This document shows positions 2,690 through 42,318 of a stretch of DNA of 43,602 nt, piece after piece. The DNA comes from a virus (Duplodnaviria; Heunggongvirae; Uroviricota; Caudoviricetes). How positions within the stretch are numbered: the first letter of the stretch is position 1; each line of letters opens with the position of its first letter. A program made the translations under genes and the position numbers. The notes beneath the pieces are model-generated. The model searched no databases. It saw only the letters and a program-made list of their open reading frames with translations, and was not told where the DNA came from. The stretch spans positions 1 through 43,602 of the IMG/VR virus record IMGVR_UViG_2541047812_000007; one strand, written 5' to 3'.

Positions 2690-3080
2690 CGTCTTTTCTC
2701 CCCGGAATTAACTCGCGTGGATTATCGGAACGGTGATAGAGCCATATACCAATACGCACAGCGACAATTGCTGACACGAATGCGCCTGCAGAGAAAACAA
2801 TCCCTTTTTCAAAAGAGTCCTGCGTGATGGTAGGGATCAGGCTGGCTATGCCGATAAGAATTGATGCTGCTGGTTTGTAAAAGAGAAGGCCACAAAGAAA
2901 GCTGAGCATCGAAAGGAGCACCCGGCGACGGATGGGGTACTCTACTGCAGAGGTAACAAAAATTACCGCCCCAGCCAAAGCCCCTAAAGCAACCTCCGGA
3001 GGGACACCTGCAATAACCGCAGCAAGAGAACCAAAACTAAGCAACTGATTTAATTGCTCACTTGTTACTTGAGCAGACAT
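2676..3080 (-). CDS. Holin-like multi-pass membrane protein
   Basis: 134 aa, several hydrophobic helices, charged C-terminus; first gene of the lysis cassette, preceded by a 300-bp AT-rich noncoding region. Confidence 0.55.
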   Translation of the reverse strand: MSAQVTSEQLNQLLSFGSLAAVIAGVPPEVALGALAGAVIFVTSAVEYPIRRRVLLSMLSFLCGLLFYKPAASILIGIASLIPTITQDSFEKGIVFSAGAFVSAIVAVRIGIWLYHRSDNPRELIPGRKDDGNA

Positions 3081-3361
3081 ACTTTCTCCTGTTTACTATC
3101 TATAAGCCAGTCAATTATTGATGACTAACCCCGCATAGTAAACCATATATGAATCATTATTGTTCCATATCATATATCTCAATAAAAGTACTAATGATTT
3201 TACAGAACGAGCCAGCAGAGTGGGGGCAGTTGTACAGGAACCATAGACTTAATTTTGTATTTAATAATGCTATGGTGTAATAAACCTGAACATGTATTTA
3301 AAATACGTACTGATTCATGATAGAATTCAAAGATAACTTTTCACAAACTCCGTTTTTGATA

Positions 3362-3390
3362 CCCGCAAAATATTGCGGGCTTTTTTTTAA
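3362..3390 (+). terminator. Hairpin plus T-run at the tailspike 3' end
   Basis: CCCGCAA-aat-ATTGCGGG followed by TTTTTTTT on the plus strand; the minus-strand version has a weaker U-tract. Confidence 0.4.
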
Positions 3391-6300
3391 CGTTCTTCCA
3401 GAGACTGAATCCGCTCTTTTATCTTATCCATTTCTCTGCGCTGCCATGCCGCCTCGATATAGAATAAGAGATCAGGTCTGACCCCCCATCTAGATCCTGC
3501 TGGCGTTATTTCAACGCGCTCAATGATGTCTTCCATTACCATCACTGGATTATCATCCTCATCAACAATGATGCTCCCGTCATTATCAGTCAGCGGCATT
3601 TCCCTTTGGCCAGTAATGACGTCATCATATACTGCGGGATAATCGTCATAGCAAAGAAAGGCATAGCGGCATGTTGTGCTTTCTTCTTCCATGAGTCCGT
3701 GAGAAATAAGAACATCACGAAGTTGCTGCGCGATTACACCATGATGTATCCTCGCTCCTTCTTCCCCCTTTATAGCGACAGCGTTCAGCCATTTATAAGC
3801 GATATACCTGACGTCACCCCAGGCATCCAGCAATGCTTCGTCAGGAGAGACCGGCTCTGTCTTTAATGTTCCGTCACTGGTAACCACAGGATTGGAGCCA
3901 AGATAAACTGTCGAGAACCTGTTTCCCGGACCACCAAGAGCATTTACATTATCAAGATAAGGTTTAACATCTCCGTTCTCAAAAAGATGTTCGAGTGCGT
4001 TATATACCGCGCGACGTGGAGTACTGCTTCCGGAACCATGCAACGTTATCATTGCACCATCTGCTGAAGACGTTGTTTCACCGCCGCTAACGATTAATCT
4101 CTGAGCGGTAACATCATCAGACGGTACTTTCTTCGCAATAATGGCGTAATTACCCTCAAGTTTGACTTCCGCGCGAACTTGTCCTGATGTACCTGCATGG
4201 ACAGTCAGTGACTGGACGGCAACATCATCTGTGAAATCAACGGGTACAGGAACCGTCCTCACGCCTGACGTCGACATAAAAGTAGGAAGCGTTCTGTTAG
4301 GAGTGGCTCCGTAGACAAAATCCCTTGAAACAAATTCTTCCTGTTTAATTTTCACCCTGAAACAATACAAATCAGCCGGGTGACCATCGTGAACATAAGG
4401 ATATTTTCTGTTGTTATCCCCTATGCTCCATGGGTTTAGAAAGTCTTCCCCACCGAAAATGTAGTACAGCCAGTTGTCTTTGATACAAACTGAACCAACA
4501 CCAACCGCAGAGTTAACTATTCCGCCCTGATAAATCTGATCAGTAACATTAACCCACTCTACATTATCCAGACTCCACTCATTGACGTTAACTCTGGTCA
4601 TAAATGTTCTTGGATAATTTCCTGCATAACGGTTATCAGGTTCTCCTCCTTCCCACTCACCAAATGCGCGCTCACTGCCAAAAATAATCAGCTCATCGCC
4701 AACTTTGGCAAAAGGAAGGTTTGAGTGATGAACATTATTTGGGAAGCGAAGAGAATTCCATGATGTACCTAAATCAGAGCTTCTGTGCAATGAACTACCG
4801 GGTTGAGTACTTAATGTCCCCCTGGTCGTCAGATACAGAATGCCATCATAATATTTTACACATGGCTCAGATGCATTCGCCTCATATTCTGCAGGTATGC
4901 GTCTGCGAACAAAGCTACCAGGAGAACCGAAAGCATCAGAGAAATAGAGTATCCCAAGCTCGCGTGGACCAATATCACCATTATGGTAGCCAACAGCAAA
5001 ACTGTTATCGCTAATCGTCGCAAAACTGTGAATCTCAGTAACAGGAGTGCTTCCGTCAACAAAAGAAGGAATAGTTCCAAGACTGGTTTTTCTCCATGGT
5101 GACGAGTGAAATGATGTACCAAAACTCCAGTATCTACCCTCGTTATTCTGATCCACATCCTGGGTATTTTGCGTCGTAACTGTAAAAGTATTTTTATCAA
5201 TAACAGTAGTCACCGTCATATTCCCGGTAACACCTGTAACACCAGAGTTTGAGAAGTTGACAAAATCACCAGCAAATAATCCGTGATCAGTAATGCGAAT
5301 ATAAGCGACTTGCTGATTTGCTGCTTTCGTTATACCACCATAAACGCGAAGGCTGCGACTCATTGGGCGATCCCACAACTCTGCAACCTGCAGTTTATTT
5401 CCTCTCACGGTCCGCGTCTCAATTACAGCAAAAAGGCGATTTCTGACAACCCCCATACTCATGCAGTGATAGTTAACTGTGGGATAGTTTTCATGTAAAT
5501 CTGTAAGCCATTCCGGCGTTGTCCAGGTCTTCCCGTCATCTCCTGAGCGAACCCATGCAACATGGAGGTTATTTACACCATGGCGGTCTCCAGCCATAAA
5601 AGGCGCATAGATGACATTGTCATATACAAACGTTTTATCCTGCGTCCAGGCGTTGTACCACGGTGTATCTGTAATTTTAAATAACTCTCCCTGGATAAAA
5701 TCTTCAGAAGCATAAAAAAGAGGCTGGCCCGGTATTCTCTCAAATAAAAAACGAGCATTTTTAAATCGACTGACATCCGGAAGAGTTGATACTTTAAAAG
5801 TAAGCCCTAATCCGTCAATTTTATAACCTGGAGATGAGGCTTCAAGGCACGCGCTTATTGCAGTGGAATCGTCATTTATACCATCACCAACAGCTCCAAA
5901 ATCTTTGGGGCTAATAGCATCACGCATTTTATCCTGGAACGTTCGGTACACAGCCCCAGAACCATACTGAATAAACCAACCAAAACCACCAACAACCCCG
6001 GCGATTGCAGCATCGACATAATTACGCATTGAGCGATTATTTACAGCGTCCTGCTCAAATGATGGATCTGCAAGGTTAGAAATTTTGTTTTGCTTTGCAT
6101 CGTAATATTTTGCAAGCAAAGATGGTTTCATCAATGCACGTCTGAACCACCCAAAACATTGCTGGATCAGCATCGTCAGGTAGTCAAAGGCATCTTCATG
6201 CACTTCGGGGAAAAATTTTCCCTGATTGCGAAGGTCTGTCTCCTGCACTACATCAAGCACACGATCTATCGTAATTCGCCATCCAGTAGCAAGCGGAGAC

Positions 6301-6506
6301 GGAAGAACCACAGAACCGCCACTATAAGTGCCCGCCCCAGTTACCGTATAACCGGTATCCAGAACCAATTCTGTTACGTTTCCGTTCAGGTCAGACACCT
6401 GAACAACCAGGTCTGATTTTCTGAAAATTCGAAAAGTATACGGAAACGATGTCGTAACGCCGTTACCGGTGTATTCGTTGTGGTCAACTTCGGTTGAGAC
6501 CGTCAT
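3387..6506 (-). CDS. Tailspike/tail fibre: T7 gp17-like N-terminal domain, sialidase-like Asp-box domain, C-terminal intramolecular chaperone-like domain
   Basis: N-terminus resembles T7 tail-fibre N-domain (YTGNGVTTSFPYTF..RKSDLVV); two Asp-boxes SGDDGKTW (nt ~5523-5546) and SSDLGTSW (nt ~4758-4781); last ~160 aa resemble the autoproteolytic chaperone domain of endosialidase-type tailspikes. SD GGAG before ATG. Confidence 0.8.
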   Translation of the reverse strand: MTVSTEVDHNEYTGNGVTTSFPYTFRIFRKSDLVVQVSDLNGNVTELVLDTGYTVTGAGTYSGGSVVLPSPLATGWRITIDRVLDVVQETDLRNQGKFFPEVHEDAFDYLTMLIQQCFGWFRRALMKPSLLAKYYDAKQNKISNLADPSFEQDAVNNRSMRNYVDAAIAGVVGGFGWFIQYGSGAVYRTFQDKMRDAISPKDFGAVGDGINDDSTAISACLEASSPGYKIDGLGLTFKVSTLPDVSRFKNARFLFERIPGQPLFYASEDFIQGELFKITDTPWYNAWTQDKTFVYDNVIYAPFMAGDRHGVNNLHVAWVRSGDDGKTWTTPEWLTDLHENYPTVNYHCMSMGVVRNRLFAVIETRTVRGNKLQVAELWDRPMSRSLRVYGGITKAANQQVAYIRITDHGLFAGDFVNFSNSGVTGVTGNMTVTTVIDKNTFTVTTQNTQDVDQNNEGRYWSFGTSFHSSPWRKTSLGTIPSFVDGSTPVTEIHSFATISDNSFAVGYHNGDIGPRELGILYFSDAFGSPGSFVRRRIPAEYEANASEPCVKYYDGILYLTTRGTLSTQPGSSLHRSSDLGTSWNSLRFPNNVHHSNLPFAKVGDELIIFGSERAFGEWEGGEPDNRYAGNYPRTFMTRVNVNEWSLDNVEWVNVTDQIYQGGIVNSAVGVGSVCIKDNWLYYIFGGEDFLNPWSIGDNNRKYPYVHDGHPADLYCFRVKIKQEEFVSRDFVYGATPNRTLPTFMSTSGVRTVPVPVDFTDDVAVQSLTVHAGTSGQVRAEVKLEGNYAIIAKKVPSDDVTAQRLIVSGGETTSSADGAMITLHGSGSSTPRRAVYNALEHLFENGDVKPYLDNVNALGGPGNRFSTVYLGSNPVVTSDGTLKTEPVSPDEALLDAWGDVRYIAYKWLNAVAIKGEEGARIHHGVIAQQLRDVLISHGLMEEESTTCRYAFLCYDDYPAVYDDVITGQREMPLTDNDGSIIVDEDDNPVMVMEDIIERVEITPAGSRWGVRPDLLFYIEAAWQRREMDKIKERIQSLEER

Positions 6507-6610
6507 GTTAAATCTCCAGATAGTCGCAGCACCCGTTGCGCCGCATATCTGGTTATTCTATTACCTGAAAAACCACATATGGATAGAAAGACTGTAAATA
6601 CGAATAGATA

Positions 6611-6625
6611 TTACCTTTCAGGTAA
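6611..6625. promoter_or_regulatory. Palindromic operator-like site TTACCTTTCAGGTAA
   Basis: Perfect TTACC-N5-GGTAA inverted repeat; identical 15-mer recurs at 26205-26219. Confidence 0.4.
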
Positions 6626-6662
6626 TTTGCAAAACGTGCTGGATAGCAAACAAATTATTTGC

Positions 6663-6682
6663 TACTGTATAAATATACAGTT
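6663..6682. promoter_or_regulatory. LexA (SOS) box
   Basis: TACTGTATAAATATACAGTT, a CTGT-N8-ACAG palindrome two mismatches from the LexA consensus, about 20 nt upstream of the ATG at 6702. Confidence 0.7.
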
Positions 6683-6701
6683 ATTGCATGGAGAAGATAA
6701 G

Positions 6702-6959
6702 ATGCAGCAGTATCACTATCCACTGGAAGACGGATTTACCGAAAGGATTCACACGCCGGGAGGCGTCAGGTCACTGGTGGAGGGATCGCACTTGATGAAA
6801 TTACTCCGGGATCTCGATAAGGATGGATTTAATGTCGATGGCCCACTTGCCGAACTGACTGCACTGATTAACTACGTCACCAGCTCACAGATGTCTATGC
6901 AGGATCTGCAAACACATCTCGACTATTGTGCCGAACAATTACGAAAACAAACCAGATAA
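6702..6959 (+). CDS. Small (85 aa) antirepressor-domain protein, predicted SOS-inducible
   Basis: SD GGAGAAG 5 nt before ATG; protein aligns with the shared C-terminal domain of the three larger antirepressors (HSPSGV / HTPGGV, DIQTHAEY / DLQTHLDY). Start moved from ORF-track 6579 to 6702. Confidence 0.6.
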   Translation: MQQYHYPLEDGFTERIHTPGGVRSLVEGSHLMKLLRDLDKDGFNVDGPLAELTALINYVTSSQMSMQDLQTHLDYCAEQLRKQTR

Positions 6960-6962
6960 GAT

Positions 6963-6991
6963 TTGAAATTACCAATAGGAGTGCTTATATT
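6963..6991 (+). promoter_or_regulatory. Sigma70-like promoter TTGAAA-17bp-TATATT
   Basis: Near-consensus -35 and -10 with 17-bp spacer; predicted start site falls inside the operator-like palindrome at 6991-7005. Confidence 0.5.
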
Positions 6992-7005
6992 TACCTTTGC
7001 GGTAA
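6991..7005. promoter_or_regulatory. Palindromic operator-like site TTACCTTTGCGGTAA
   Basis: TTACC-N5-GGTAA inverted repeat overlapping the promoter -10 and start site. Confidence 0.4.
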
Positions 7006-7118
7006 ATTTACATCGCACTCCTCTTGTGCCATAGTAATCGGGCACTGGCAAAATCCAGTGCCGGGATTGGCGTCCCGGATTACTAAAAGGCGCATTCACC
7101 GCGCAAGCGGTTTTTTTA
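6998..7118 (+). ncRNA. Candidate small RNA or terminated leader (about 120 nt)
   Basis: Runs from the predicted promoter to an intrinsic terminator (ACCGC-gcaa-GCGGT plus T7 at 7098-7118); contains nested GC-rich hairpins; the overlapping ORFs have no SD and poor context. Confidence 0.3.
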
Positions 7119-7274
7119 TGCGTATAGCACGGCCACATTCGTATTATGGTGGGCTGTGTGGGGGCACCGAAAGGTGCGCCGGGTCCTTTTAGCCGGTTAC
7201 GCCAACCCTGCACAGTTCACCACCAACCGATTGGCGTCGGTAGTGGTGATTAACCAGACTAAAAGGTAACCACT

Positions 7275-7970
7275 ATGACAGCTACAAAAAGCACGTCCAT
7301 TTTTTCTTTCGAATCCCAAGCCGATATACGGGTAATCGTCATTAATGGTGAGCCATGGTTTATCGCTTCAGATGTTTGTCGGGCTATAGGCATAGCAAAC
7401 CATCGAGATGCTGTTCGAAAACTTGATGATGATGAGAAGGGCGTCGCTTCAACCGACACCCCTGGCGGTGAGCAAGAATCGATCATCATCTCCGAGTCAG
7501 GCCTCTACACACTGATCCTCCGCTGCCGCGACGCAGTGACACCAGGCACTATCCCCTACCGCTTTCGTAAATGGGTTACAGGTGAGGTTCTTCCTCAGAT
7601 CCGCCGCACCGGAAGTTACATTAAAAACTCGCTCCCGCAGGAAGAACGCATAAAGATGGTTGCCGACCAGGTAGCCAGCGCCACAGCATCAGCAGTGATG
7701 CAGGCAATGAAGGTAGAGAACAAAACCTACAGCGCCCCGCTGAAGCCCGGCTACCGCAGCCTGATTCACTCGCCGTCTGGTGTTCTCGGCCTGACGGAGA
7801 ACTCACTGCTGATGAATCTGCTGAACCAGTTACAGGACGACGGGCACGACGTATCGGGCGCGGCGGCGGAGCTGACCACCATGTTCTGCTACATCGTCGG
7901 TGTGAGCAAATGCCTGCGTGATATCCAGACCCACGCGGAGTACATCAACGACAAGGCAGGGTTCTTCTGA
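7275..7970 (+). CDS. Antirepressor, Bro-N N-terminal domain plus shared antirepressor C-terminal domain
   Basis: N-terminus has the Bro-N pattern (IRVIVINGEPWFIASDVCRAIG); C-terminal ~80 aa nearly identical to the C-termini of 9088-10026 and 41668-42318. Confidence 0.8.
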   Translation: MTATKSTSIFSFESQADIRVIVINGEPWFIASDVCRAIGIANHRDAVRKLDDDEKGVASTDTPGGEQESIIISESGLYTLILRCRDAVTPGTIPYRFRKWVTGEVLPQIRRTGSYIKNSLPQEERIKMVADQVASATASAVMQAMKVENKTYSAPLKPGYRSLIHSPSGVLGLTENSLLMNLLNQLQDDGHDVSGAAAELTTMFCYIVGVSKCLRDIQTHAEYINDKAGFF

Positions 7971-7993
7971 CGGCGGCGGCACAGGGACGTGCC
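7729..7993 (+). repeat. Copy 1 of a ~260-bp near-identical repeat (antirepressor 3' end plus ~25 bp)
   Basis: Over 95% identical by eye to 42073-42341 (direct) and to 9064-9318 (inverted). Confidence 0.8.
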
Positions 7994-8040
7994 TTTAAAT
8001 AATTCTGTACGATTGCAGACTGGGGGTGAATAGCGTACTA

Positions 8041-8055
8041 TTACCCCAAAGGTAA
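8041..8055. promoter_or_regulatory. Palindromic operator-like site TTACCCCAAAGGTAA
   Basis: TTACC-N5-GGTAA inverted repeat about 120 bp upstream of the 8173 cassette. Confidence 0.4.
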
Positions 8056-8172
8056 GAAAGTTGATTTGTAACATTTTAGTTTGTAGTTACCGTGATGGTT
8101 TTGCTGCAGAAAGTTAACTAGTCAAAATCACACCGTATGTAAGTCACGTCTGTTCCCGTATGGGAGGATGAT

Positions 8173-8391
8173 ATGTTTAAATTTGATATGCAACTTAACC
8201 AAAACTATGCCTCTTTTTACCATCCAGAAACTGGTAAAGCTGTTTTCGTTGACTCTTTCGATAATGAAGAATTTGATATCAGAATTGGGACCCTACGCCA
8301 AAGTAAGCATGTTGCTACTGTACGTGCATCCAATGATGATGAATTAAATCAAAAAATAAGTGAGGCGACCTCCCGTTATCTATGTCTATAA
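8173..8391 (+). CDS. Hypothetical protein (72 aa), first gene of an AT-rich two-gene moron
   Basis: Strong SD GGGAGG 6 nt before ATG; low GC relative to surrounding phage DNA; no family recognised. Confidence 0.6.
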   Translation: MFKFDMQLNQNYASFYHPETGKAVFVDSFDNEEFDIRIGTLRQSKHVATVRASNDDELNQKISEATSRYLCL

Positions 8392-8759
8392 CAGAACAAC
8401 AACTCATTGATCTTGAGGATGAGATTAACGAGATCTTGCAAGAAGATGCGGCAAGAATTCACTTTTCATTTCACGCAGCATATGAACGCCTGAACGACGA
8501 GAGGAACAAACCGCCAATTACTCTTGCTGAGCTTGAAGATGTGTTTAAATCGTTTATATCTGCACATCTGCAGACTGTTTTGGATTTTGCTGAAGGTACA
8601 ACTTTCACCATAAAGTGCAACAAAAGCGCCCTTCATTTTCCTTGCGCCATTGTACACGAAAGAGAGTTTGGGAAAACGTGGGTTATCCAAAACGTCATTA
8701 CAGCCATGAGGAAAGTGGGATTCAAGTCTAAAGATTCTATTATCCTCGAAGTTAATTAA
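8382..8759 (+). CDS. Hypothetical protein (125 aa), second gene of the AT-rich moron
   Basis: Start overlaps upstream stop by 10 nt (translational coupling); followed directly by an intrinsic terminator; no family recognised. Confidence 0.6.
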   Translation: MSITEQQLIDLEDEINEILQEDAARIHFSFHAAYERLNDERNKPPITLAELEDVFKSFISAHLQTVLDFAEGTTFTIKCNKSALHFPCAIVHEREFGKTWVIQNVITAMRKVGFKSKDSIILEVN

Positions 8760-8780
8760 GCCCGCAGCGCGGGCTTTTTT
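8760..8780 (+). terminator. Rho-independent terminator
   Basis: GCCCGC-agc-GCGGGC followed by TTTTTT immediately after the stop at 8759. Confidence 0.65.
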
Positions 8781-8852
8781 GTGGACGAAACAAAAGTCAG
8801 TGCTACACTCATTGACGCCACATTGAGGTGGCTTATAGATGGAAATTTCACA

Positions 8853-9014
8853 ATGAAAAAAGCATTTGCTGCACTGTTCGTTTTGTTGTCTCTGGTAGCT
8901 TCAACTCAGGCCTTTGCCGGTCGTTGTCAGCACGACAGCGATACTGCCGCTGACGGCTCCCGCTGCGGTGGGCGTTCTGCGGATTCCCGCCCGGGTGGCG
9001 GTGGCATTCGTTAA
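8853..9014 (+). CDS. Small secreted peptide (53 aa), hypothetical
   Basis: Signal peptide MKKAFAALFVLLSLVASTQAFA; plausible promoter TTGACG-16-TATAGA upstream; weak SD. ORF-track start 8781 replaced by the internal ATG. Confidence 0.4.
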   Translation: MKKAFAALFVLLSLVASTQAFAGRCQHDSDTAADGSRCGGRSADSRPGGGGIR

Positions 9015-9036
9015 AAACAAGGCCGCGAAAGCGGCC
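9012..9036 (-). terminator. Terminator for the minus-strand antirepressor gene
   Basis: Hairpin GGCCGC-gaaa-GCGGCC (9021-9036); on the minus strand it is followed by a U-rich tract. Confidence 0.5.
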
Positions 9037-9063
9037 TGTGACATGTCACGCTAGTTTCGTTTT

Positions 9064-9318
9064 GCACGTCCCTGTGCCGCCGTTCTGTCAGAAGAACCCT
9101 GCCTTGTCGTTGATGTATTCCGCGTGCGTCTGGATATCACGCAGGCATTTGCTCACACCAACGATGTAGCAGAACATGGTGGTCAGCTCCGCCGCCGCGC
9201 CCGATACATCGTGCCCGTCTTCCTGTAACTGGTTCAGCAGATTCATCAGCAGTGAGTTCTCCGTCAGGCCGAGAACACCCGACGGCGAATGAATCAGACT
9301 GCGGTAGCCTGGCTTCAA
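9064..9318 (-). repeat. Copy 2 (inverted) of the ~260-bp antirepressor 3' repeat
   Basis: Reverse complement aligns with 7729-7993 and 42073-42341 with few substitutions. Confidence 0.8.
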
Positions 9319-10026
9319 TGGATAACCATAACATTTTGTCTGTGTTTTAATTGCCTCACGAAGCGCATCTAACATCTTGACTGCCACTTCATCATTCTCT
9401 GATGCAGATCCAGCAGGGAGATACTCCCCTTCAAGCGGAACCCGAGCAACAAGAGACAACGCTTCGGCAAATTGATCTTCACCAATTTCTTTGTACGAAC
9501 AGCCAAAATGAGATTTCAGTGACGACCACATGGTGATCATCGCCTTAGCCTGTTTTTCTTTTGGCAGAGACTGACCGCGACTCATGACGAGTTGTTTAAT
9601 GGCTTCCTGCTGTTCAGTTGTTATTTTACCCGGCAACGCCTTTTTAGCTTTGCGTGGGTTAACCACATGGCCTTTAGTCCAGTACTCGTAGAGCACATCG
9701 TCACACTCTTCCTGATACTGGATTACCTTGTCGCGGATTTCAGGGCGGACTTTGTTAGGGCTGATGCTGTTCAACCAAGCTGCCAATTTTCGTAAAGCCA
9801 TACAAATCATGGCTTGCACCCCACCGGCAGAAGGTATGGTGATTTCCACCATACCCTTCGAGAAGCGTTGAGAAATCTTCTTATGTTGAGATTTCCAGTC
9901 TAGCCCCATTCCCTCAACGATAGGTTTCATTGGGGTATACGGTTCGCCGTTGTGATTGACAACATAAAGCTCTGCGCCGTGGAATGGCACGTTGATAGTA
10001 GATACTGCTGTTGCTATACTCGTCAT
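9088..10026 (-). CDS. Antirepressor (ant-like), distinct N-terminal domain plus shared C-terminal domain
   Basis: 312 aa; SD AGGA before ATG; sits downstream of an Arc-like gene as in P22 immI; C-terminus shared with the other antirepressors. Confidence 0.8.
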   Translation of the reverse strand: MTSIATAVSTINVPFHGAELYVVNHNGEPYTPMKPIVEGMGLDWKSQHKKISQRFSKGMVEITIPSAGGVQAMICMALRKLAAWLNSISPNKVRPEIRDKVIQYQEECDDVLYEYWTKGHVVNPRKAKKALPGKITTEQQEAIKQLVMSRGQSLPKEKQAKAMITMWSSLKSHFGCSYKEIGEDQFAEALSLVARVPLEGEYLPAGSASENDEVAVKMLDALREAIKTQTKCYGYPLKPGYRSLIHSPSGVLGLTENSLLMNLLNQLQEDGHDVSGAAAELTTMFCYIVGVSKCLRDIQTHAEYINDKAGFF

Positions 10027-10098
10027 GTCGTTAATTCCTATACGTAGTTTTACGATACTGAAGCCCTGACGGTCTGGCCACCGTGGGGCTTCGCTGTT

Positions 10099-10266
10099 TT
10101 ATGCCACGCTATTCTTCTCACCAGTGAGTCCATACACTTTCCTCAGCTGATAGATAATCTCTGTATTGAACTTTCGGCATTCTTTTTCGCCATTTCTTTC
10201 AATAGCTAACTTCACATCGTCCGGAAAACGAACTCGTCGTTGACACATCTCTTTTGCTTTTTGCAT
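10099..10266 (-). CDS. Arc-like ribbon-helix-helix repressor
   Basis: 55 aa from internal ATG with SD AAGGAG 7 nt upstream; resembles P22 Arc (RFPDDVKLAIERNG...NTEIIYQLRK). Confidence 0.6.
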   Translation of the reverse strand: MQKAKEMCQRRVRFPDDVKLAIERNGEKECRKFNTEIIYQLRKVYGLTGEKNSVA

Positions 10267-10280
10267 TTCATATCTCCTTA

Positions 10281-10295
10281 GCCCCACCGTGGGGC
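10281..10295. promoter_or_regulatory. Palindrome GCCCCACCGTGGGGC upstream of the arc-like gene
   Basis: Inverted repeat next to the arc SD; core CCACCGTGG recurs at 10078-10086 and 29359-29367. Confidence 0.35.
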
Positions 10296-10386
10296 AAAAT
10301 AATTGTCACACCGTGCGTCATTGATGTCAAGCACACGGTGAGGCATACTTCAATCATTGCAAGTAACTCAATATTTGGTGAAGAAC

Positions 10387-10818
10387 ATGAGCAGAGAAGA
10401 TCCACAACTAAGGATCAGACTTCCCGTCGAAGTAAAAGAAAAAATAGAAATTTCTGCAAAAGCCAATAAGCGATCAATGAACGCTGAAATAGTACAACGT
10501 CTTGACACCAGCTTTCTGAAAGATATTCATGAAGATGACGTAATTTCTGCTTATGAAGCAAAAATCATTGCAAACAATGCACGACATGAAATATCAAATA
10601 TTATTTTCAAAAGAACCTTTAATGAAATTAATAAGAAAATAACACTTGGACATACAAGTTTTTATATAAACCTTAATGACCTTGAACTGGAATCACTTGC
10701 AGATAATGATTACCAGATCATCTTTGAAAAAACATTTAATAGGCTCAATGAACTAGGTTACATCATCTGTGAAAACTCATGGGATGCAGATGGTTTTGGA
10801 ATTGAAATACCTGAATAG
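10387..10818 (+). CDS. Mnt-like ribbon-helix-helix regulator with a ~95-aa C-terminal extension
   Basis: N-terminus resembles P22 Mnt/Arc (LRIRLPVEVKEKIEISAKANKRSMNAEIVQRL); divergent from arc/ant; AT-rich C-terminal domain of unknown family. Confidence 0.6.
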   Translation: MSREDPQLRIRLPVEVKEKIEISAKANKRSMNAEIVQRLDTSFLKDIHEDDVISAYEAKIIANNARHEISNIIFKRTFNEINKKITLGHTSFYINLNDLELESLADNDYQIIFEKTFNRLNELGYIICENSWDADGFGIEIPE

Positions 10819-10831
10819 GAAGAACAAAAGG

Positions 10832-10848
10832 CGTGTACATATTACACG
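10832..10848. promoter_or_regulatory. Perfect palindrome CGTGTA-CATAT-TACACG
   Basis: 17-bp inverted repeat between the mnt-like gene and the membrane protein gene. Confidence 0.3.
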
Positions 10849-10908
10849 TCTTTAATACAATTGAAAAACGCCACATTACTGATGTATGTTACAACAAGGA
10901 GCGATATT

Positions 10909-11472
10909 TTGAAAACCATATCTATATTAAAGGTTGCATTAGGCGTCGCTATTATTTTGACTCTCTCAATATTGTTTTATTTTTACCACAAACAAACTGC
11001 TATTGCTCTTGATAGTCACGCGGCAAACTCATTTTTCTCAGAGTACATAGTGCCGCTATCAGGAAGCGGTATAACAAATAAATATACTGACTATGACATC
11101 AAATATGGAATTGATGATGGGGAGACTATTGTATTACATGTAATCATTAAAAACCTAATGACAGTAAATAAAAATACAGACTTCAACGATAAAAATACAA
11201 TACATCACAACAACAGCAAAACATTAATTTCTTATAGTAGCAACATCTATACGGATAAATACCTAAAATACATATCAGAAGATACAATAAAAGAAACCCG
11301 CGAAAAGTTAAAAAACATATATTGTGCATCCGGCAGTTTTCACAAATTATCGCCGCAAGAGCGTTTATTCTACGAAGCAAGAAAACAACGTAAGTCAATA
11401 ATATTACATTATTATGCTGATTCAGGGGAGACACTCATATTTAATATTGGGGTTTCCCCTGAATCATGCTAA
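10909..11472 (+). CDS. AT-rich membrane-anchored protein, candidate superinfection-exclusion moron
   Basis: TTG start 7 nt after strong SD AAGGAG (ORF-track start 10861 also TTG); N-terminal TM helix; roughly 33% GC; occupies the position of sieA in P22-type maps. Confidence 0.55.
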   Translation: MKTISILKVALGVAIILTLSILFYFYHKQTAIALDSHAANSFFSEYIVPLSGSGITNKYTDYDIKYGIDDGETIVLHVIIKNLMTVNKNTDFNDKNTIHHNNSKTLISYSSNIYTDKYLKYISEDTIKETREKLKNIYCASGSFHKLSPQERLFYEARKQRKSIILHYYADSGETLIFNIGVSPESC

Positions 11473-35695: not shown

Positions 35696-35759
35696 TTCAC
35701 CCATAAGGTAACAAAAATCAAGGATGGTTACCTATGAGGTGCATTTACCTGTTGGGTAA
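35696..35759. promoter_or_regulatory. Tripartite operator cluster in the divergent cro/repressor intergenic region
   Basis: TCACCCATAAGGTAA (35696-35710), TTACCTATGAGGTGC (35728-35742), TTACCTGTTGGGTAA (35745-35759). Confidence 0.5.
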
Positions 35760-35814: not shown

Positions 35815-36399
35815 ATGAAAAGTATCCAGGACGTCCGCAGGCAAAATCTCAACGACTTGATCGACCGTGAATTCAATGGTGTTCAGACGCGGATGGCAGA
35901 AAAACTTGGAACTCAGGCAAATCTGGTAAACCGCTGGGCTCTTGGCAAGAAGGTTATCGGCGACCAGGTTGCGCGAAAAATTGAAGCTGCCGCCAATAAA
36001 CCCCGTAACTGGCTTGATATCGATCGCTCGCTTTCTCAGGAAGGTTTTCAGCCTGTCGGCCCAAGCGACATTGGTCAGCTGGCGGCTCACAACCTGGAAC
36101 GCTGGATGAGCGAAAGCCGCGACCTTTCAACACAGGGAAAACTTCACCGCGCATCCGGCGTCGCCCAGGTGACAATCAGCCGCCTGTTAAACAATGAGGT
36201 CAGCGTTTCCATTTCCACCCTGGAGAATGTTGCATCCGCATTCGGGCGTCACGGATATGAACTACTGATTCACCCGCACGACCCTGCGACTATCAACTAT
36301 GACCGCTCACGCTACGCATTGTTACCCGAAACCGAGAAAGCAAAGATCGAAAGTTACATTGAATTTGTCATCAACCAGAACGAAAAAAGCAAACAATAA
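35815..36399 (+). CDS. Prophage repressor with two HTH motifs and no peptidase domain
   Basis: 194 aa; two XRE-type HTH segments; no S24-like autocleavage motifs seen in the C-terminal part. Confidence 0.7.
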   Translation: MKSIQDVRRQNLNDLIDREFNGVQTRMAEKLGTQANLVNRWALGKKVIGDQVARKIEAAANKPRNWLDIDRSLSQEGFQPVGPSDIGQLAAHNLERWMSESRDLSTQGKLHRASGVAQVTISRLLNNEVSVSISTLENVASAFGRHGYELLIHPHDPATINYDRSRYALLPETEKAKIESYIEFVINQNEKSKQ

Positions 36400-41667: not shown

Positions 41668-42318
41668 ATGACCAGTCAACTCATCCCCGTATTCAACGGC
41701 ACTATATCCAACGAAACCGCTCTTCTCGTTAATGCCCGTGATTTACACACTTTCCTCGATGTGGGTAAGCGATTTGCTTCGTGGATTGTCGAACGAATTG
41801 CTGAATATGGTTTCGTTGAAAATCAAGACTTTATGATTATTTCCCAAGTTCGGGAAAAAATAGGCAGAGGCCGTCCTGCAAAAGACTACCACCTCACCCT
41901 CGATACAGCCAAAGAGCTGGCGATGGTCGAGCGTAATGAAAAAGGTCGTCAGGTACGACGCTACTTCATTGAATGCGAGAAACGTTTAAGACAACAAGAA
42001 ACAAAAGTGGAGAAGGTCTTGTCAGGCTTCATGCCCGCCATTATGGAGGCGATCAAGCTGGAAGACAAAAAAGAATACAGTGCCCCACTGAAGCCCGGCT
42101 ACCGCAGCCTGATTCACTCGCCGTCTGGTGTTCTCGGCCTGACGGAGCGCTCACTGCTGATGAATCTGCTGAACCAGTTACAGGACGACGGGCACGACGT
42201 ATCGGGCGCGGCGGCGGAGCTGACCACCATGTTCTGCTACATCGTCGGTGTGAGCAAATGCCTGCGTGATATCCAGACTCACGCGGAGTACATCAACGAC
42301 AAGGCAGGGTTCTTCTGA
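41668..42318 (+). CDS. Antirepressor, AntA-like N-terminal domain plus shared C-terminal domain
   Basis: Strong SD AGGAGG; N-terminal pattern DLHTFLDVGKRFASWIVERIAEYGFVENQDF; C-terminal ~80 aa shared with 7275-7970 and 9088-10026. Confidence 0.8.
   Translation: MTSQLIPVFNGTISNETALLVNARDLHTFLDVGKRFASWIVERIAEYGFVENQDFMIISQVREKIGRGRPAKDYHLTLDTAKELAMVERNEKGRQVRRYFIECEKRLRQQETKVEKVLSGFMPAIMEAIKLEDKKEYSAPLKPGYRSLIHSPSGVLGLTERSLLMNLLNQLQDDGHDVSGAAAELTTMFCYIVGVSKCLRDIQTHAEYINDKAGFF

What the first reader, a model, noticed from the sequence alone, without database searches (positions are those of the whole stretch)
8041..8780. AT-rich two-gene moron (72 aa + 125 aa) with its own operator and terminator: candidate toxin-antitoxin or defence/counter-defence cassette
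The two ORFs are translationally coupled, far lower in GC than the surrounding phage DNA, preceded by a TTACC-N5-GGTAA palindrome and a strong SD, and closed by a clean intrinsic terminator. They sit between two antirepressor genes inside the inverted ~260-bp repeats. I recognise neither protein. Compact, compositionally foreign, self-contained modules in prophage accessory regions frequently encode exclusion systems.
Basis: inference. Interest (0 to 1): 0.6.

Follow-up and report, generated by a model that had tools for sequence, protein, structure and literature searches.

The report
Swappable two-gene cargo in prophage slot
Two small, tightly linked genes of unknown function sit as exchangeable cargo in a repressor-controlled expression slot of an epsilon15-like E. 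coli prophage; they most likely form a new toxin/inhibitor-type pair, but this is inferred from context only.

Summary
These are two overlapping ORFs (72 aa at 8173..8391, 125 aa at 8382..8759), a GC dip, a TTACC-N5-GGTAA palindrome, a strong SD, a terminator and flanking inverted repeats. However, the operator and terminator do not belong to the cassette. The palindrome is the genome-wide operator of the epsilon15-type phage repressor: 13 sites in the window against 0.75 expected, and the motif is annotated as a repressor site in phage epsilon15. Promoter, operator and terminator are kept in relatives whose slot holds other cargo: a 210-aa gene, a YafO-family toxin pair, or DUF2335/DUF4760 proteins. 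The true cassette is about 8060-8759.

ORF1 and ORF2 are real genes (dN/dS about 0.09 and 0.03). They are always adjacent across Proteobacteria, in prophages, chromosomes and a plasmid. Neither matches any Pfam, NCBIfam, PADLOC or PDB family.

ORF2 carries a widespread, undescribed phage domain with an invariant H/R/R/N/P/T/R/F set. Lytic marine phages have this domain without ORF1. Best reading (about 0.4): a new effector plus inhibitor (toxin-antitoxin-like) module, probably silent in the lysogen and expressed on derepression. Function is unproven.

The parts
7275..7970 (+). BRO-N antirepressor gene (context, left border of the slot). Its last ~270 nt form the left arm of the inverted repeat.
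   Evidence: Pfam Bro-N 2.5e-21; phrog_130 anti-repressor Ant; inverted repeat I1.
7978..7996 (+). Hairpin GGCAC-AGGGAC-GTGCC followed by TTT, just after the ant stop codon. It lies within the 19-nt perfect inverted-repeat arm (7974-7992). Conserved slot sequence.
   Evidence: Read; inverted repeat I2; conserved columns in alignment A6.
8013..8041 (+). Putative slot promoter: TTGCAG (-35, 8013-8018), 17-nt spacer, TACTAT (-10, 8036-8041).
   Evidence: TTGCA, the TA of the -10 and the operator half-sites are the invariant columns in an alignment of six loci with four different cargos. The operators at 6991, 33396 and 36519 show the same arrangement, with the -10 abutting the operator. It scores 8/12, below the 9/12 threshold of the consensus scan, which found no promoter here.
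8041..8055 (.). Operator TTACCCCAAAGGTAA of the epsilon15-type phage repressor. It overlaps the -10 and the +1 region.
   Evidence: 13 sites in the window against 0.75 expected. Sites flank the HTH repressor gene at the OR and OL positions. ATTACC-N5-GGTAAT is annotated 'protein_bind: repressor' at equivalent positions in epsilon15, NC_004775.
8056..8172 (+). Cassette-specific leader of ~115 nt, with SD GGGAGG at 8162-8167.
   Evidence: Homology with alternative cargos ends at about 8060. No significant RNA structure: z = -0.39. The only conserved structure is a 4-bp hairpin over the SD. No credible Rfam hit.
8173..8391 (+). ORF1: 72 aa, acidic (pI 5.2), four beta-strands plus a C-terminal helix, invariant VDSFDN-EF motif. 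Proposed inhibitor or partner of ORF2.
   Evidence: phrog_14630, 9.5e-50; 30 homologues; alignment A2; AlphaFold2 pLDDT 90.9; dN/dS ~0.09; always directly upstream of ORF2.
8382..8759 (+). ORF2: 125 aa, N-terminal helix plus a ~100-aa alpha/beta domain with invariant H31, R36, R41, N42, P87, T107, R110 and F114. Proposed effector.
   Evidence: phrog_14518, 5.6e-78, and the C-terminal module of phrog_23027; 654 cluster representatives at E<=1e-3; alignment A4; dN/dS ~0.03.
8758..8781 (+). Intrinsic terminator AAGCCCGC-AGC-GCGGGCTT followed by a T-run. Part of the conserved slot.
   Evidence: Terminator scan. The same hairpin follows the 210-aa, YafO and DUF2335 cargos and the Klebsiella and Salmonella copies of the pair; only loop bases differ.
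8853..9014 (+). 53-aa protein with a signal-peptide-like N-terminus (context, right border of the slot). It has a separate putative promoter (TTGACG-N16-TATAGA) with no operator.
   Evidence: phrog_14503 'membrane associated protein', 2.3e-40; 100% conserved next to all E. coli cargos; promoter read.
9088..10026 (-). Second antirepressor gene of the P22_AR_N type (context). Its 3' end is the right arm of the inverted repeat.
   Evidence: Pfam P22_AR_N 5.9e-45; inverted repeat I1.

Best explanation
The window is an epsilon15/phiV10/TL-2011b-like (Uetakevirus-type) E. coli prophage.

Downstream of its BRO-N antirepressor gene lies a fixed expression slot. The slot has a sigma-70-like promoter (8013-8041) whose -10 and +1 region is covered by one operator of the phage's main HTH repressor (8041-8055). 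A shared intrinsic terminator (8758-8781) closes it. Between these two fixed parts, related phages carry different cargo, presumably exchanged by recombination in the conserved flanks.

Here the cargo is a two-gene module, ORF1-ORF2. It is found as a unit in many Proteobacteria. I propose that ORF2 is an effector, probably an enzyme or ligand-binder that acts on a nucleotide or nucleic acid through its invariant His/Arg/Asn/Thr residues. I propose that ORF1 is a small acidic protein that binds ORF2 and holds it in check. That makes the pair toxin-antitoxin-like, used in conflicts between phages, or between phage and host.

ORF1 is translated first and ORF2 only by coupling, so the inhibitor would be made in at least equal amount.

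In this prophage the operator should keep the pair silent while the repressor is active. It should switch on together with the early genes after induction, antirepressor action or infection. In non-phage locations the same pair sits behind ordinary TATAAT-type promoters.

Shown: the anatomy, the conservation, the linkage and the identity of the operator with the sites annotated as predicted repressor-binding sites in epsilon15. Inferred: repression in the lysogen, ORF1-ORF2 binding, and toxicity or effector activity.
For: Slot:
- Flanks are conserved and the cargo differs in about 300 E. coli genomes. Only 4 of 5426 carry this pair.
- Alternative cargos are a 210-aa protein, a 59-aa gene plus a YafO-family toxin, a DUF2335 pair and DUF4760.
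- The cargos are not homologous to one another.
- Promoter, operator and terminator are invariant across cargos.

Operator:
- 13 sites against 0.75 expected.
- Pairs of sites flank the HTH_3 repressor gene 35815..36399.
- The same motif is annotated as a repressor-binding site in epsilon15 at matching genome positions.
- The -10 hexamer abuts the operator at several sites.

Module:
- An ORF1 homologue lies directly upstream of ORF2, overlapping or abutting it, in all 30+ close loci.
- The same holds in 12 of 12 distant loci from Marinomonas, Proteus, Erwinia, Rahnella, Pseudomonas, Pseudoduganella and others.
- Contexts are unrelated: the epsilon15-like slot; a lambda-like tail-region insertion; the deo locus; a site next to a transposase; a megaplasmid; and an integrase island next to HicAB.
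- Non-phage copies have their own TATAAT-type promoters and lack the phage operator.
- Both genes are under purifying selection.
- ORF1 folds confidently as a small beta-sheet plus helix. Its best, weak fold matches include immunity proteins and phage-encoded protein inhibitors.
- ORF2 has an invariant polar constellation.
- Distant ORF2-like domains are abundant in lytic marine myoviruses and in multidomain phage proteins, and there they have no ORF1. This fits a partner that is needed only where the host must survive.
Against: - Neither protein hits any toxin, antitoxin or defence family in Pfam, NCBIfam, PADLOC or PDB sequences, singly or as a profile.
- ORF1 has no RHH, HTH or AbrB DNA-binding domain, so classical type II autoregulation is unlikely.
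- ORF2 is acidic (pI 5.2), unlike most RNase toxins.
- The ORF2 structure model is poor (pLDDT 51.6). Its fold search is uninformative.
- A repressor-silenced promoter is an odd place for a module that has to be pre-loaded in the lysogen in order to abort infections.
- The pair is rare on plasmids (2 of 72,556 records).
- In some marine myoviruses the ORF2-like gene sits in the baseplate cluster, which suggests a virion-associated rather than a toxic role for the wider domain family.
Confidence: 0.4

Rival explanations
1. Early-expressed counter-defence or host-takeover pair. ORF2 is an effector that the phage deploys against a host or rival system once the repressor is lifted. ORF1 is its chaperone, adaptor or timing regulator, not an antitoxin.
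For: - The operator of the lysogeny repressor covers the promoter, so expression is predicted with the early lytic genes.
- The wider ORF2-like domain family is mainly a lytic-phage family. It occurs in early-region gene arrays of marine T4-like phages and is fused to cytidylyltransferase-like and P-loop kinase domains.
- ORF1's weak fold neighbours include phage-encoded inhibitors: T7 Gp1.2, AcrIF24 and PsiB.
Against: - The same pair sits in ordinary chromosomal loci and on a megaplasmid, behind constitutive-looking promoters and far from any phage genes. That is unusual for anti-defence genes.
- The strict ORF1 requirement in resident elements, but not in lytic phages, fits neutralisation better.
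- A YafO-type toxin pair occupies the same slot in sister phages.
Confidence: 0.25
2. Virion-associated or injected accessory proteins. The ORF2 domain is a module that attaches proteins to the tail or baseplate, or to the packaged DNA, and ORF1 is its assembly partner.
For: - The ORF2-like gene lies between gp53 and the gp5/PAAR/gp25/gp6 baseplate genes in marine myovirus contigs of ~100-135 kb.
- The domain sits at the N- or C-terminus of large multidomain phage proteins.
- In this window the slot lies between the tailspike gene and the large internal-virion/ejection-protein genes.
Against: - The cassette is transcribed opposite to the structural genes, from an early-type, repressor-controlled promoter.
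- It is dispensable: most relatives carry other cargo.
- It also occurs in non-phage chromosomal loci.
Confidence: 0.1
3. Modulator of the antirepressor / lysis-lysogeny circuit. The pair works with the neighbouring Ant proteins or the repressor.
For: - In E. coli, Salmonella and Klebsiella epsilon15-like prophages the pair always follows the BRO-N ant gene.
- It shares the same repressor operator as the ant unit.
Against: - The adjacency is a property of the slot, not of the cargo. Unrelated cargos occupy the same position.
- The pair occurs without any ant gene in Pantoea, Proteus, Erwinia, Marinomonas, Rahnella and others.
Confidence: 0.07

Closest known systems
Type II toxin-antitoxin modules, such as the YafO-family pair that occupies the same slot in phage TL-2011b, and epsilon/zeta-type pairs whose antitoxin does not bind DNA
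   Same: - Two small, co-directional, overlapping genes, with the smaller one first.
- Patchy, mobile distribution across prophages, chromosomes, an integrase island and a plasmid.
- The same genomic slot is used by a recognised toxin family in sister phages.
   Different: - No sequence or profile similarity to any known toxin or antitoxin.
- ORF1 has no DNA-binding domain.
- Both proteins are acidic.
- In the prophage the promoter is governed by the phage repressor, not by the pair itself.
Prophage and satellite hotspots of accessory or defence genes (P2/P4 hotspots, Rousset et al. 2022, PMC9122126; listed, not read here, cited from my own knowledge) and classical lambdoid 'morons'
   Same: - A fixed position in a conserved phage backbone where unrelated, compositionally distinct cargo genes replace one another.
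- Cargo is bounded by a promoter and a terminator.
   Different: - Promoter, operator and terminator are part of the backbone and are reused by every cargo.
- The promoter carries the lysogeny repressor's operator. This predicts lytic-phase rather than lysogen expression.
- None of the cargos tested matches a PADLOC defence model.
Scattered-operator regulons of temperate phages (P1 C1 with its dispersed operators, including Op51 in front of immI c4-icd-ant; the epsilon15 repressor sites annotated in NC_004775)
   Same: - One repressor recognises single or paired operators in front of many separate transcription units.
- These units include the c4-RNA/ant unit next door.
   Different: - The motif here is a symmetric 15-bp TTACC-N5-GGTAA, not the asymmetric 17-bp P1 site (the P1 details are from my own knowledge).
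- Binding has not been shown experimentally for this prophage.
PHROG families phrog_14630 (ORF1), phrog_14518 (ORF2) and phrog_23027 (a 602-aa protein with an ORF2-like C-terminus)
   Same: Full-length, highly significant matches: 9.5e-50 and 5.6e-78. The ORF2 domain matches positions 488-600 of phrog_23027.
   Different: These families carry no functional annotation, so membership names the proteins but does not explain them.

Membership tests
Type II toxin-antitoxin system | Two adjacent, co-transcribed small genes, usually overlapping, inherited as a unit | tested here: met
   10-nt overlap in the window. ORF1 lies directly upstream of ORF2 in 30+ close loci and 12 of 12 distant loci.
Type II toxin-antitoxin system | Toxin belongs to a recognised toxin superfamily (RelE/ParE, MazF, VapC, HicA, Doc, YafO, zeta and others) | tested here: not met
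   No hit in Pfam, NCBIfam, PADLOC or PDB sequences, with single sequences or with a 45-member profile. hhalign against the YafO-like cargo gave probability 0.2%. A RelE/DUF4258-like look of the 'F-x-H-A-x-x-x-R' segment is my recollection only and no search supported it.
Type II toxin-antitoxin system | Antitoxin with a DNA-binding domain that autoregulates the operon | tested here: not met
   ORF1 has no Pfam domain. Its confident model is four beta-strands plus one helix. Upstream palindromes differ completely between loci while ORF1 is conserved. In the prophage the operator is the phage repressor's.
Type II toxin-antitoxin system | Toxin arrests growth and the cognate antitoxin neutralises it by direct binding | not testable with these tools
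   Needs expression and toxicity assays and co-purification.
Known anti-phage defence systems (PADLOC-DB v2.0.0) | At least one protein matches a model of a described or candidate defence system | tested here: not met
   No families at E <= 1 for ORF1, ORF2 or the 53-aa neighbour. None for the alternative cargos.
Moron (autonomous extra gene unit in a prophage) | Compositionally distinct insert, absent from close relatives, bounded by a promoter and a terminator | tested here: met
   GC 0.395 against 0.482. Present in 4 of 309 E. coli genomes that have the slot. Promoter and terminator are present, but they are shared slot elements.
Moron (autonomous extra gene unit in a prophage) | Expressed from the repressed prophage, independently of phage regulation | tested here: inconclusive
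   The repressor operator overlaps the -10 and +1 region, which predicts the opposite. No expression data are available.
Epsilon15-type repressor regulon | Promoter overlapped by the (A)TTACC-N5-GGTAA(T) operator that also forms OR and OL | tested here: met
   Exact match at 8041-8055. 13 sites in the window against 0.75 expected. OR and OL pairs lie at 35697/35745 and 36457/36519, around the HTH repressor gene. The same motif is annotated 'repressor' in NC_004775. Actual binding was not tested.
PHROG phrog_14630 / phrog_14518 | Full-length significant match to the family profile | tested here: met
   9.5e-50 (positions 1-72 of 72) and 5.6e-78 (1-125 of 125).

The most novel reading that the evidence does not exclude
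ORF1-ORF2 founds a new effector/inhibitor (toxin-antitoxin or abortive-infection) family with no detectable relative among described protein families. Its effector domain, with its invariant His-Arg-Arg-Asn-Thr-Arg residue set, is also a common but undescribed weapon or host-takeover module of lytic marine phages, either alone or fused to nucleotidyltransferases and kinases. The epsilon15-like slot would then be a repressor-gated 'plug-in socket' that lets temperate phages swap such modules and fire them only on derepression.
Probability: 0.3. Interest if true: 0.7.

Novelty: new member of a known kind. Interest (0 to 1): 0.45.

Why it matters
If the pair is an effector/inhibitor module, it adds a new protein family to the toxin-antitoxin and phage-conflict repertoire. 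It would also give a first functional handle on a domain present in about a thousand 90%-identity protein clusters from phages and metagenomes that have no annotation.

The slot is of practical interest in its own right. It is a fixed promoter-operator-terminator frame in a common family of E. coli, Salmonella and Klebsiella prophages, into which unrelated cargos are exchanged. It is therefore a ready-made list of candidate conflict genes (the 210-aa protein, the DUF2335 pair, DUF4760, the YafO-like pair and this pair). All of them are predicted to be expressed only when the repressor is lifted. That regulatory class differs from the usual lysogen-expressed defence morons.

Tried and rejected
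- **Family searches.** Pfam, NCBIfam and PADLOC found nothing for ORF1 or ORF2. PDB sequence searches found nothing, either with single sequences or with a 45-sequence profile of the ORF2 domain. Scanning every member of that alignment against Pfam at E <= 10 gave only scattered chance hits.
- **RelE/DUF4258 idea.** My recollection that ORF2 resembles DUF4258/BrnT/RelE-type toxins got no support from any search. I do not claim it.
- **Leader RNA.** A regulatory RNA in the ~115-nt leader is rejected. The fold z-score is -0.39, the consensus fold has a single 4-bp hairpin, and the only Rfam hit in the finding interval (Leu_leader, 21.7 bits against a gathering score of 50) lies over the ORF2 3' end and terminator, not the leader.
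- **Private operator.** The idea that the palindrome is a cassette-private operator, or is bound by ORF1/ORF2, is rejected. The same sites exist in phages that lack the pair.
- **Related cargos.** Alternative cargos as distant homologues of the pair is rejected.
- **Hidden ORF1 in large proteins.** An ORF1-like domain hidden in the large ORF2-domain proteins was not found.
- **Nine-repeat hit.** The 5704-aa protein reported with nine stretches did not reach E <= 1e-3 with the broader profile, so I ignored it.
- **Tool failures.** The search for related loci with the broad alignment failed for lack of a conserved stretch. The Kropinski 2007 epsilon15 paper could not be read. No paper mentions the protein accessions or the PHROG ids.
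Full report
**What the window is.** Megablast of the first 25 kb finds Escherichia phage TL-2011b (82% covered, 97% identity), phiV10 and other epsilon15-like podoviruses. The window is therefore an epsilon15/Uetakevirus-type prophage, here with an endosialidase tailspike at 3387..6506. The finding lies in the accessory region between the tailspike and the internal-virion genes. Three regulatory features surround it:
- a BRO-N antirepressor gene (7275..7970) preceded by a P1-type c4/isrK antisense RNA;
- a P22-type antirepressor gene (9088..10026, minus strand) with a sar RNA;
- Arc- and Mnt-like repressor genes.

**Checking the observation.** All the described features are there.
- ORF1 (8173..8391, 72 aa) and ORF2 (8382..8759, 125 aa) overlap by 10 nt, and ORF2 has no SD of its own.
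- GGGAGG lies 5 nt upstream of the ORF1 ATG.
- The palindrome TTACCCCAAAGGTAA is at 8041-8055.
- A clean intrinsic terminator is at 8758-8776 plus a T-run.
- GC is 0.395 against a window mean of 0.482 (sd 0.040) and 0.54-0.60 in the direct flanks.
- The inverted repeats are 270 nt at 90% complementarity plus a perfect 19-mer. They are the shared C-terminal domain of the two convergent antirepressor genes plus about 20 nt beyond each stop codon.

Both ORFs are real genes.
- They match full-length PHROG families of unknown function.
- They have homologues of constant length in Escherichia, Salmonella, Klebsiella, Enterobacter and Pantoea.
- dN/dS is about 0.09 for ORF1 and about 0.03 for ORF2.
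- ORF1 folds with pLDDT 90.9.

**The operator and terminator are not the cassette's own.**

TTACC-N5-GGTAA occurs 13 times in the window at up to one mismatch. Shuffles give 0.75 on average, and none of 100 reached 13. The sites are placed as follows:
- two between the cro-like gene and the 194-aa HTH_3 repressor gene 35815..36399 (the OR position);
- two just downstream of that repressor gene, in front of the exo/recT operon (the OL position);
- others in front of terS, in front of the head genes and after the replication genes;
- three in the accessory region, at 6611, 6991 and 8041.

The RefSeq record of phage epsilon15 annotates ATTACC-N5-GGTAAT as 'protein_bind: repressor' at the equivalent genome positions. 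So the palindrome is the operator of the phage's main repressor.

I aligned the region from six loci that carry four different cargos. The invariant columns are exactly a -35 TTGCA(G) at 8013-8018, the TA that starts a -10 TACTAT at 8036-8041, and the two operator half-sites. Similarity between cargos stops at about 8060. On the other side, similarity resumes exactly at the terminator hairpin, which is shared by all cargos and differs only in loop bases. The arrangement in which the -10 abuts the operator recurs at other sites in the window.

The true cassette is thus about 8060-8759. It sits in a backbone 'socket' made of promoter, operator and terminator.

**The slot is a cargo-exchange site.** Of 5426 complete E. 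coli genomes, 309 contain the flanks but only 4 contain this pair; ETEC H10407 is one of them. The others carry:
- a 210-aa protein;
- a 59-aa gene plus a YafO-family toxin;
- a 108-aa gene plus a 167-aa DUF2335 protein;
- DUF4760, or other hypothetical proteins.

These cargos are unrelated to ORF1 and ORF2, and none matches a PADLOC model.

**The pair is an autonomous two-gene unit.**
- In every locus recovered, an ORF1 homologue lies immediately upstream of ORF2, overlapping or abutting it. This holds for 30+ close loci from E. coli, Salmonella, Klebsiella and viral contigs. The Klebsiella version alone is indexed in 3112 blocks of the assembly collection.
- It also holds for 12 of 12 distant loci, where ORF2 identity is 37-49%. 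These come from Marinomonas, Proteus, Erwinia, Rahnella, Pseudomonas, Pseudoduganella and uncultured Gammaproteobacteria.
- The contexts are unrelated: the epsilon15-like slot; a lambda-like tail-gene region; between deo genes; next to a DDE transposase; on a 953-kb plasmid; and on a small integrase island beside HicAB.
- Outside epsilon15-like phages the pair has ordinary TATAAT-type promoters and no TTACC motif.
- It is rare in sequenced phage isolates (2 of 50,697 records) and on plasmids (2 of 72,556 records).

**What the proteins look like.**

ORF2 could not be modelled well (pLDDT 51.6). A profile search of 1.84 billion cluster representatives found 654 relatives at E <= 1e-3, and a second search found 996 at E <= 1e-5. 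Eight positions are invariant over a 45-sequence sample: H31, R36, R41, N42, P87, T107, R110 and F114. That set looks like a catalytic or phosphate-binding site; this is an inference.

The distant relatives are phage proteins of three kinds:
- stand-alone ~130-aa genes among early-type small genes of marine T4-like phages;
- a gene between gp53 and gp5/PAAR/gp25 in other myoviruses;
- N- or C-terminal modules of large proteins. Among 64 such proteins, 18 also carry a cytidylyltransferase-like domain, 13 DUF5824 and 6 Zeta-toxin/AAA_33 kinase domains; one carries HNH.

None of these has an ORF1-like partner or domain.

**Most likely mechanism.**

I read the pair as an effector (ORF2) held in check by a small partner (ORF1), that is, a toxin-antitoxin-like module. 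The arguments are:
- obligate linkage with translational coupling;
- selfish-element-like scatter across unrelated contexts;
- constitutive promoters outside phages;
- a YafO-family toxin pair, as annotated by RefSeq and just above the Pfam cut-off, in the very same slot of sister phages;
- ORF1 is present wherever the carrier must coexist with a living host and absent from the lytic-phage relatives sampled here.

In this prophage the repressor operator over the -10 and +1 region predicts silence in the lysogen. It predicts expression together with the early genes after derepression. The repressor lacks a self-cleavage domain and the phage carries three antirepressors, so derepression is presumably Ant-driven.

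Against this reading:
- there is no match to any known toxin, antitoxin or defence family;
- ORF1 has no DNA-binding fold;
- ORF2 is acidic;
- a silenced promoter is an odd setting for an abortive-infection module;
- the baseplate-cluster relatives point elsewhere.

I put the reading at about 0.4. The rivals are an early counter-defence or host-takeover pair (0.25), a virion-associated pair (0.1) and a modulator of the antirepressor circuit (0.07).

**Comparison with what is known.** The kind of thing is familiar: exchangeable accessory cargo at a prophage hotspot, very possibly a toxin-antitoxin-like pair. The two protein families and the wider ORF2 domain are undescribed, and the reuse of one repressor-gated promoter and one terminator by all cargos is an unusual layout for such a hotspot; I did not find it described. 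I file it as a new member of a known kind, of moderate interest. The interest would rise if ORF2 proves to be a new enzymatic effector.

Noticed in passing
window 6991-7227 (+): There is a P1/P7-type immI arrangement in front of the BRO-N ant gene. It starts with the repressor operator at 6991-7005, which has a TTGAAA-N17-TATATT promoter. Then come Rfam c4-a1b1 (7029-7081), isrK (7042-7117, 77.9 bits) and C4 antisense RNA (7142-7227, 77.7 bits).
   Followed up: partly
window 10028-10818: The same prophage also has a P22-type immI. It consists of sar antisense RNA (10028-10095, 44.8 bits against a gathering score of 43), an Arc-like gene 10099..10287 (-) and a Mnt/Arc-domain gene 10357..10818 (+) next to the P22_AR_N antirepressor. 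A third antirepressor (AntA/AntB) is at 41668..42318. The 194-aa repressor (35815..36399) has an HTH_3 domain but no peptidase S24 domain.
   Followed up: partly
window 6611, 6991, 8041, 26205, 29356, 29374, 33396, 33458, 35360, 35697, 35745, 36457, 36519: Thirteen TTACC-N5-GGTAA sites (0.75 expected) head most transcription units of the prophage. Their positions match the sites annotated as repressor-binding in epsilon15 (NC_004775). The layout is a scattered-operator regulon, reminiscent of P1 C1.
   Followed up: yes
window 6702..6959 (+): An 85-aa ORF consists only of the C-terminal domain shared by both Ant proteins (phrog_450, 1.1e-47). It has its own repressor operator at 6611-6625. It may be a stand-alone Ant-domain protein or a remnant.
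   Followed up: no
window 7702-7992 and 9064-9356: The ~290-nt inverted repeat is made by the 3' ends of the two convergent ant genes. It brackets the slot and the 53-aa gene, so it could allow inversion or cargo exchange by homologous recombination. I did not look for an inverted arrangement in other genomes.
   Followed up: no
window 8853..9014 (+) and 9020-9037: A 53-aa protein with a signal-peptide-like N-terminus and a Gly/Arg-rich tail (phrog_14503, 'membrane associated protein') is 100% conserved next to every E. coli cargo. It has a putative promoter of its own, TTGACG-N16-TATAGA, with no operator. It therefore looks like the lysogen-expressed moron of this region. A terminator-like hairpin on the minus strand follows at 9037-9020.
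   Followed up: partly
window 10357-11472: This is the most AT-rich stretch nearby (GC 0.33). It includes a 203-aa ORF (10861..11472) with no Pfam hit, another likely foreign cargo.
   Followed up: no
L011 (Pantoea coffeiphila PDET01000018.1, locus 4255-8940): A ~4.7-kb integrase island carries HicB/HicA, a 178-aa gene, the ORF1-ORF2 pair and a 156-aa gene. TTACC-N5-GGTAA sites lie in front of hicBA, in front of the pair (two sites) and next to the integrase gene. No epsilon15-like phage genes are in the 12 kb. It may be a satellite-like element wired to a helper phage's repressor.
   Followed up: partly
L058/L059 (marine myovirus contigs, locus 3001-3393): A distant ORF2-like gene (130 aa) sits between gp53 and the gp5(OB)/PAAR/gp25/gp6 baseplate genes. 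In other marine T4-like contigs (L050-L052, L056-L057) it sits among early-type small genes near a T4-type spanin, a lipase and ribonucleotide reductase.
   Followed up: partly
L001 (E. coli ETEC H10407, locus 189-2804): In ETEC H10407 the tailspike gene of the related prophage is interrupted by an IS66-family element (ISCro1), so that copy of the prophage is probably defective although the pair is intact.
   Followed up: no
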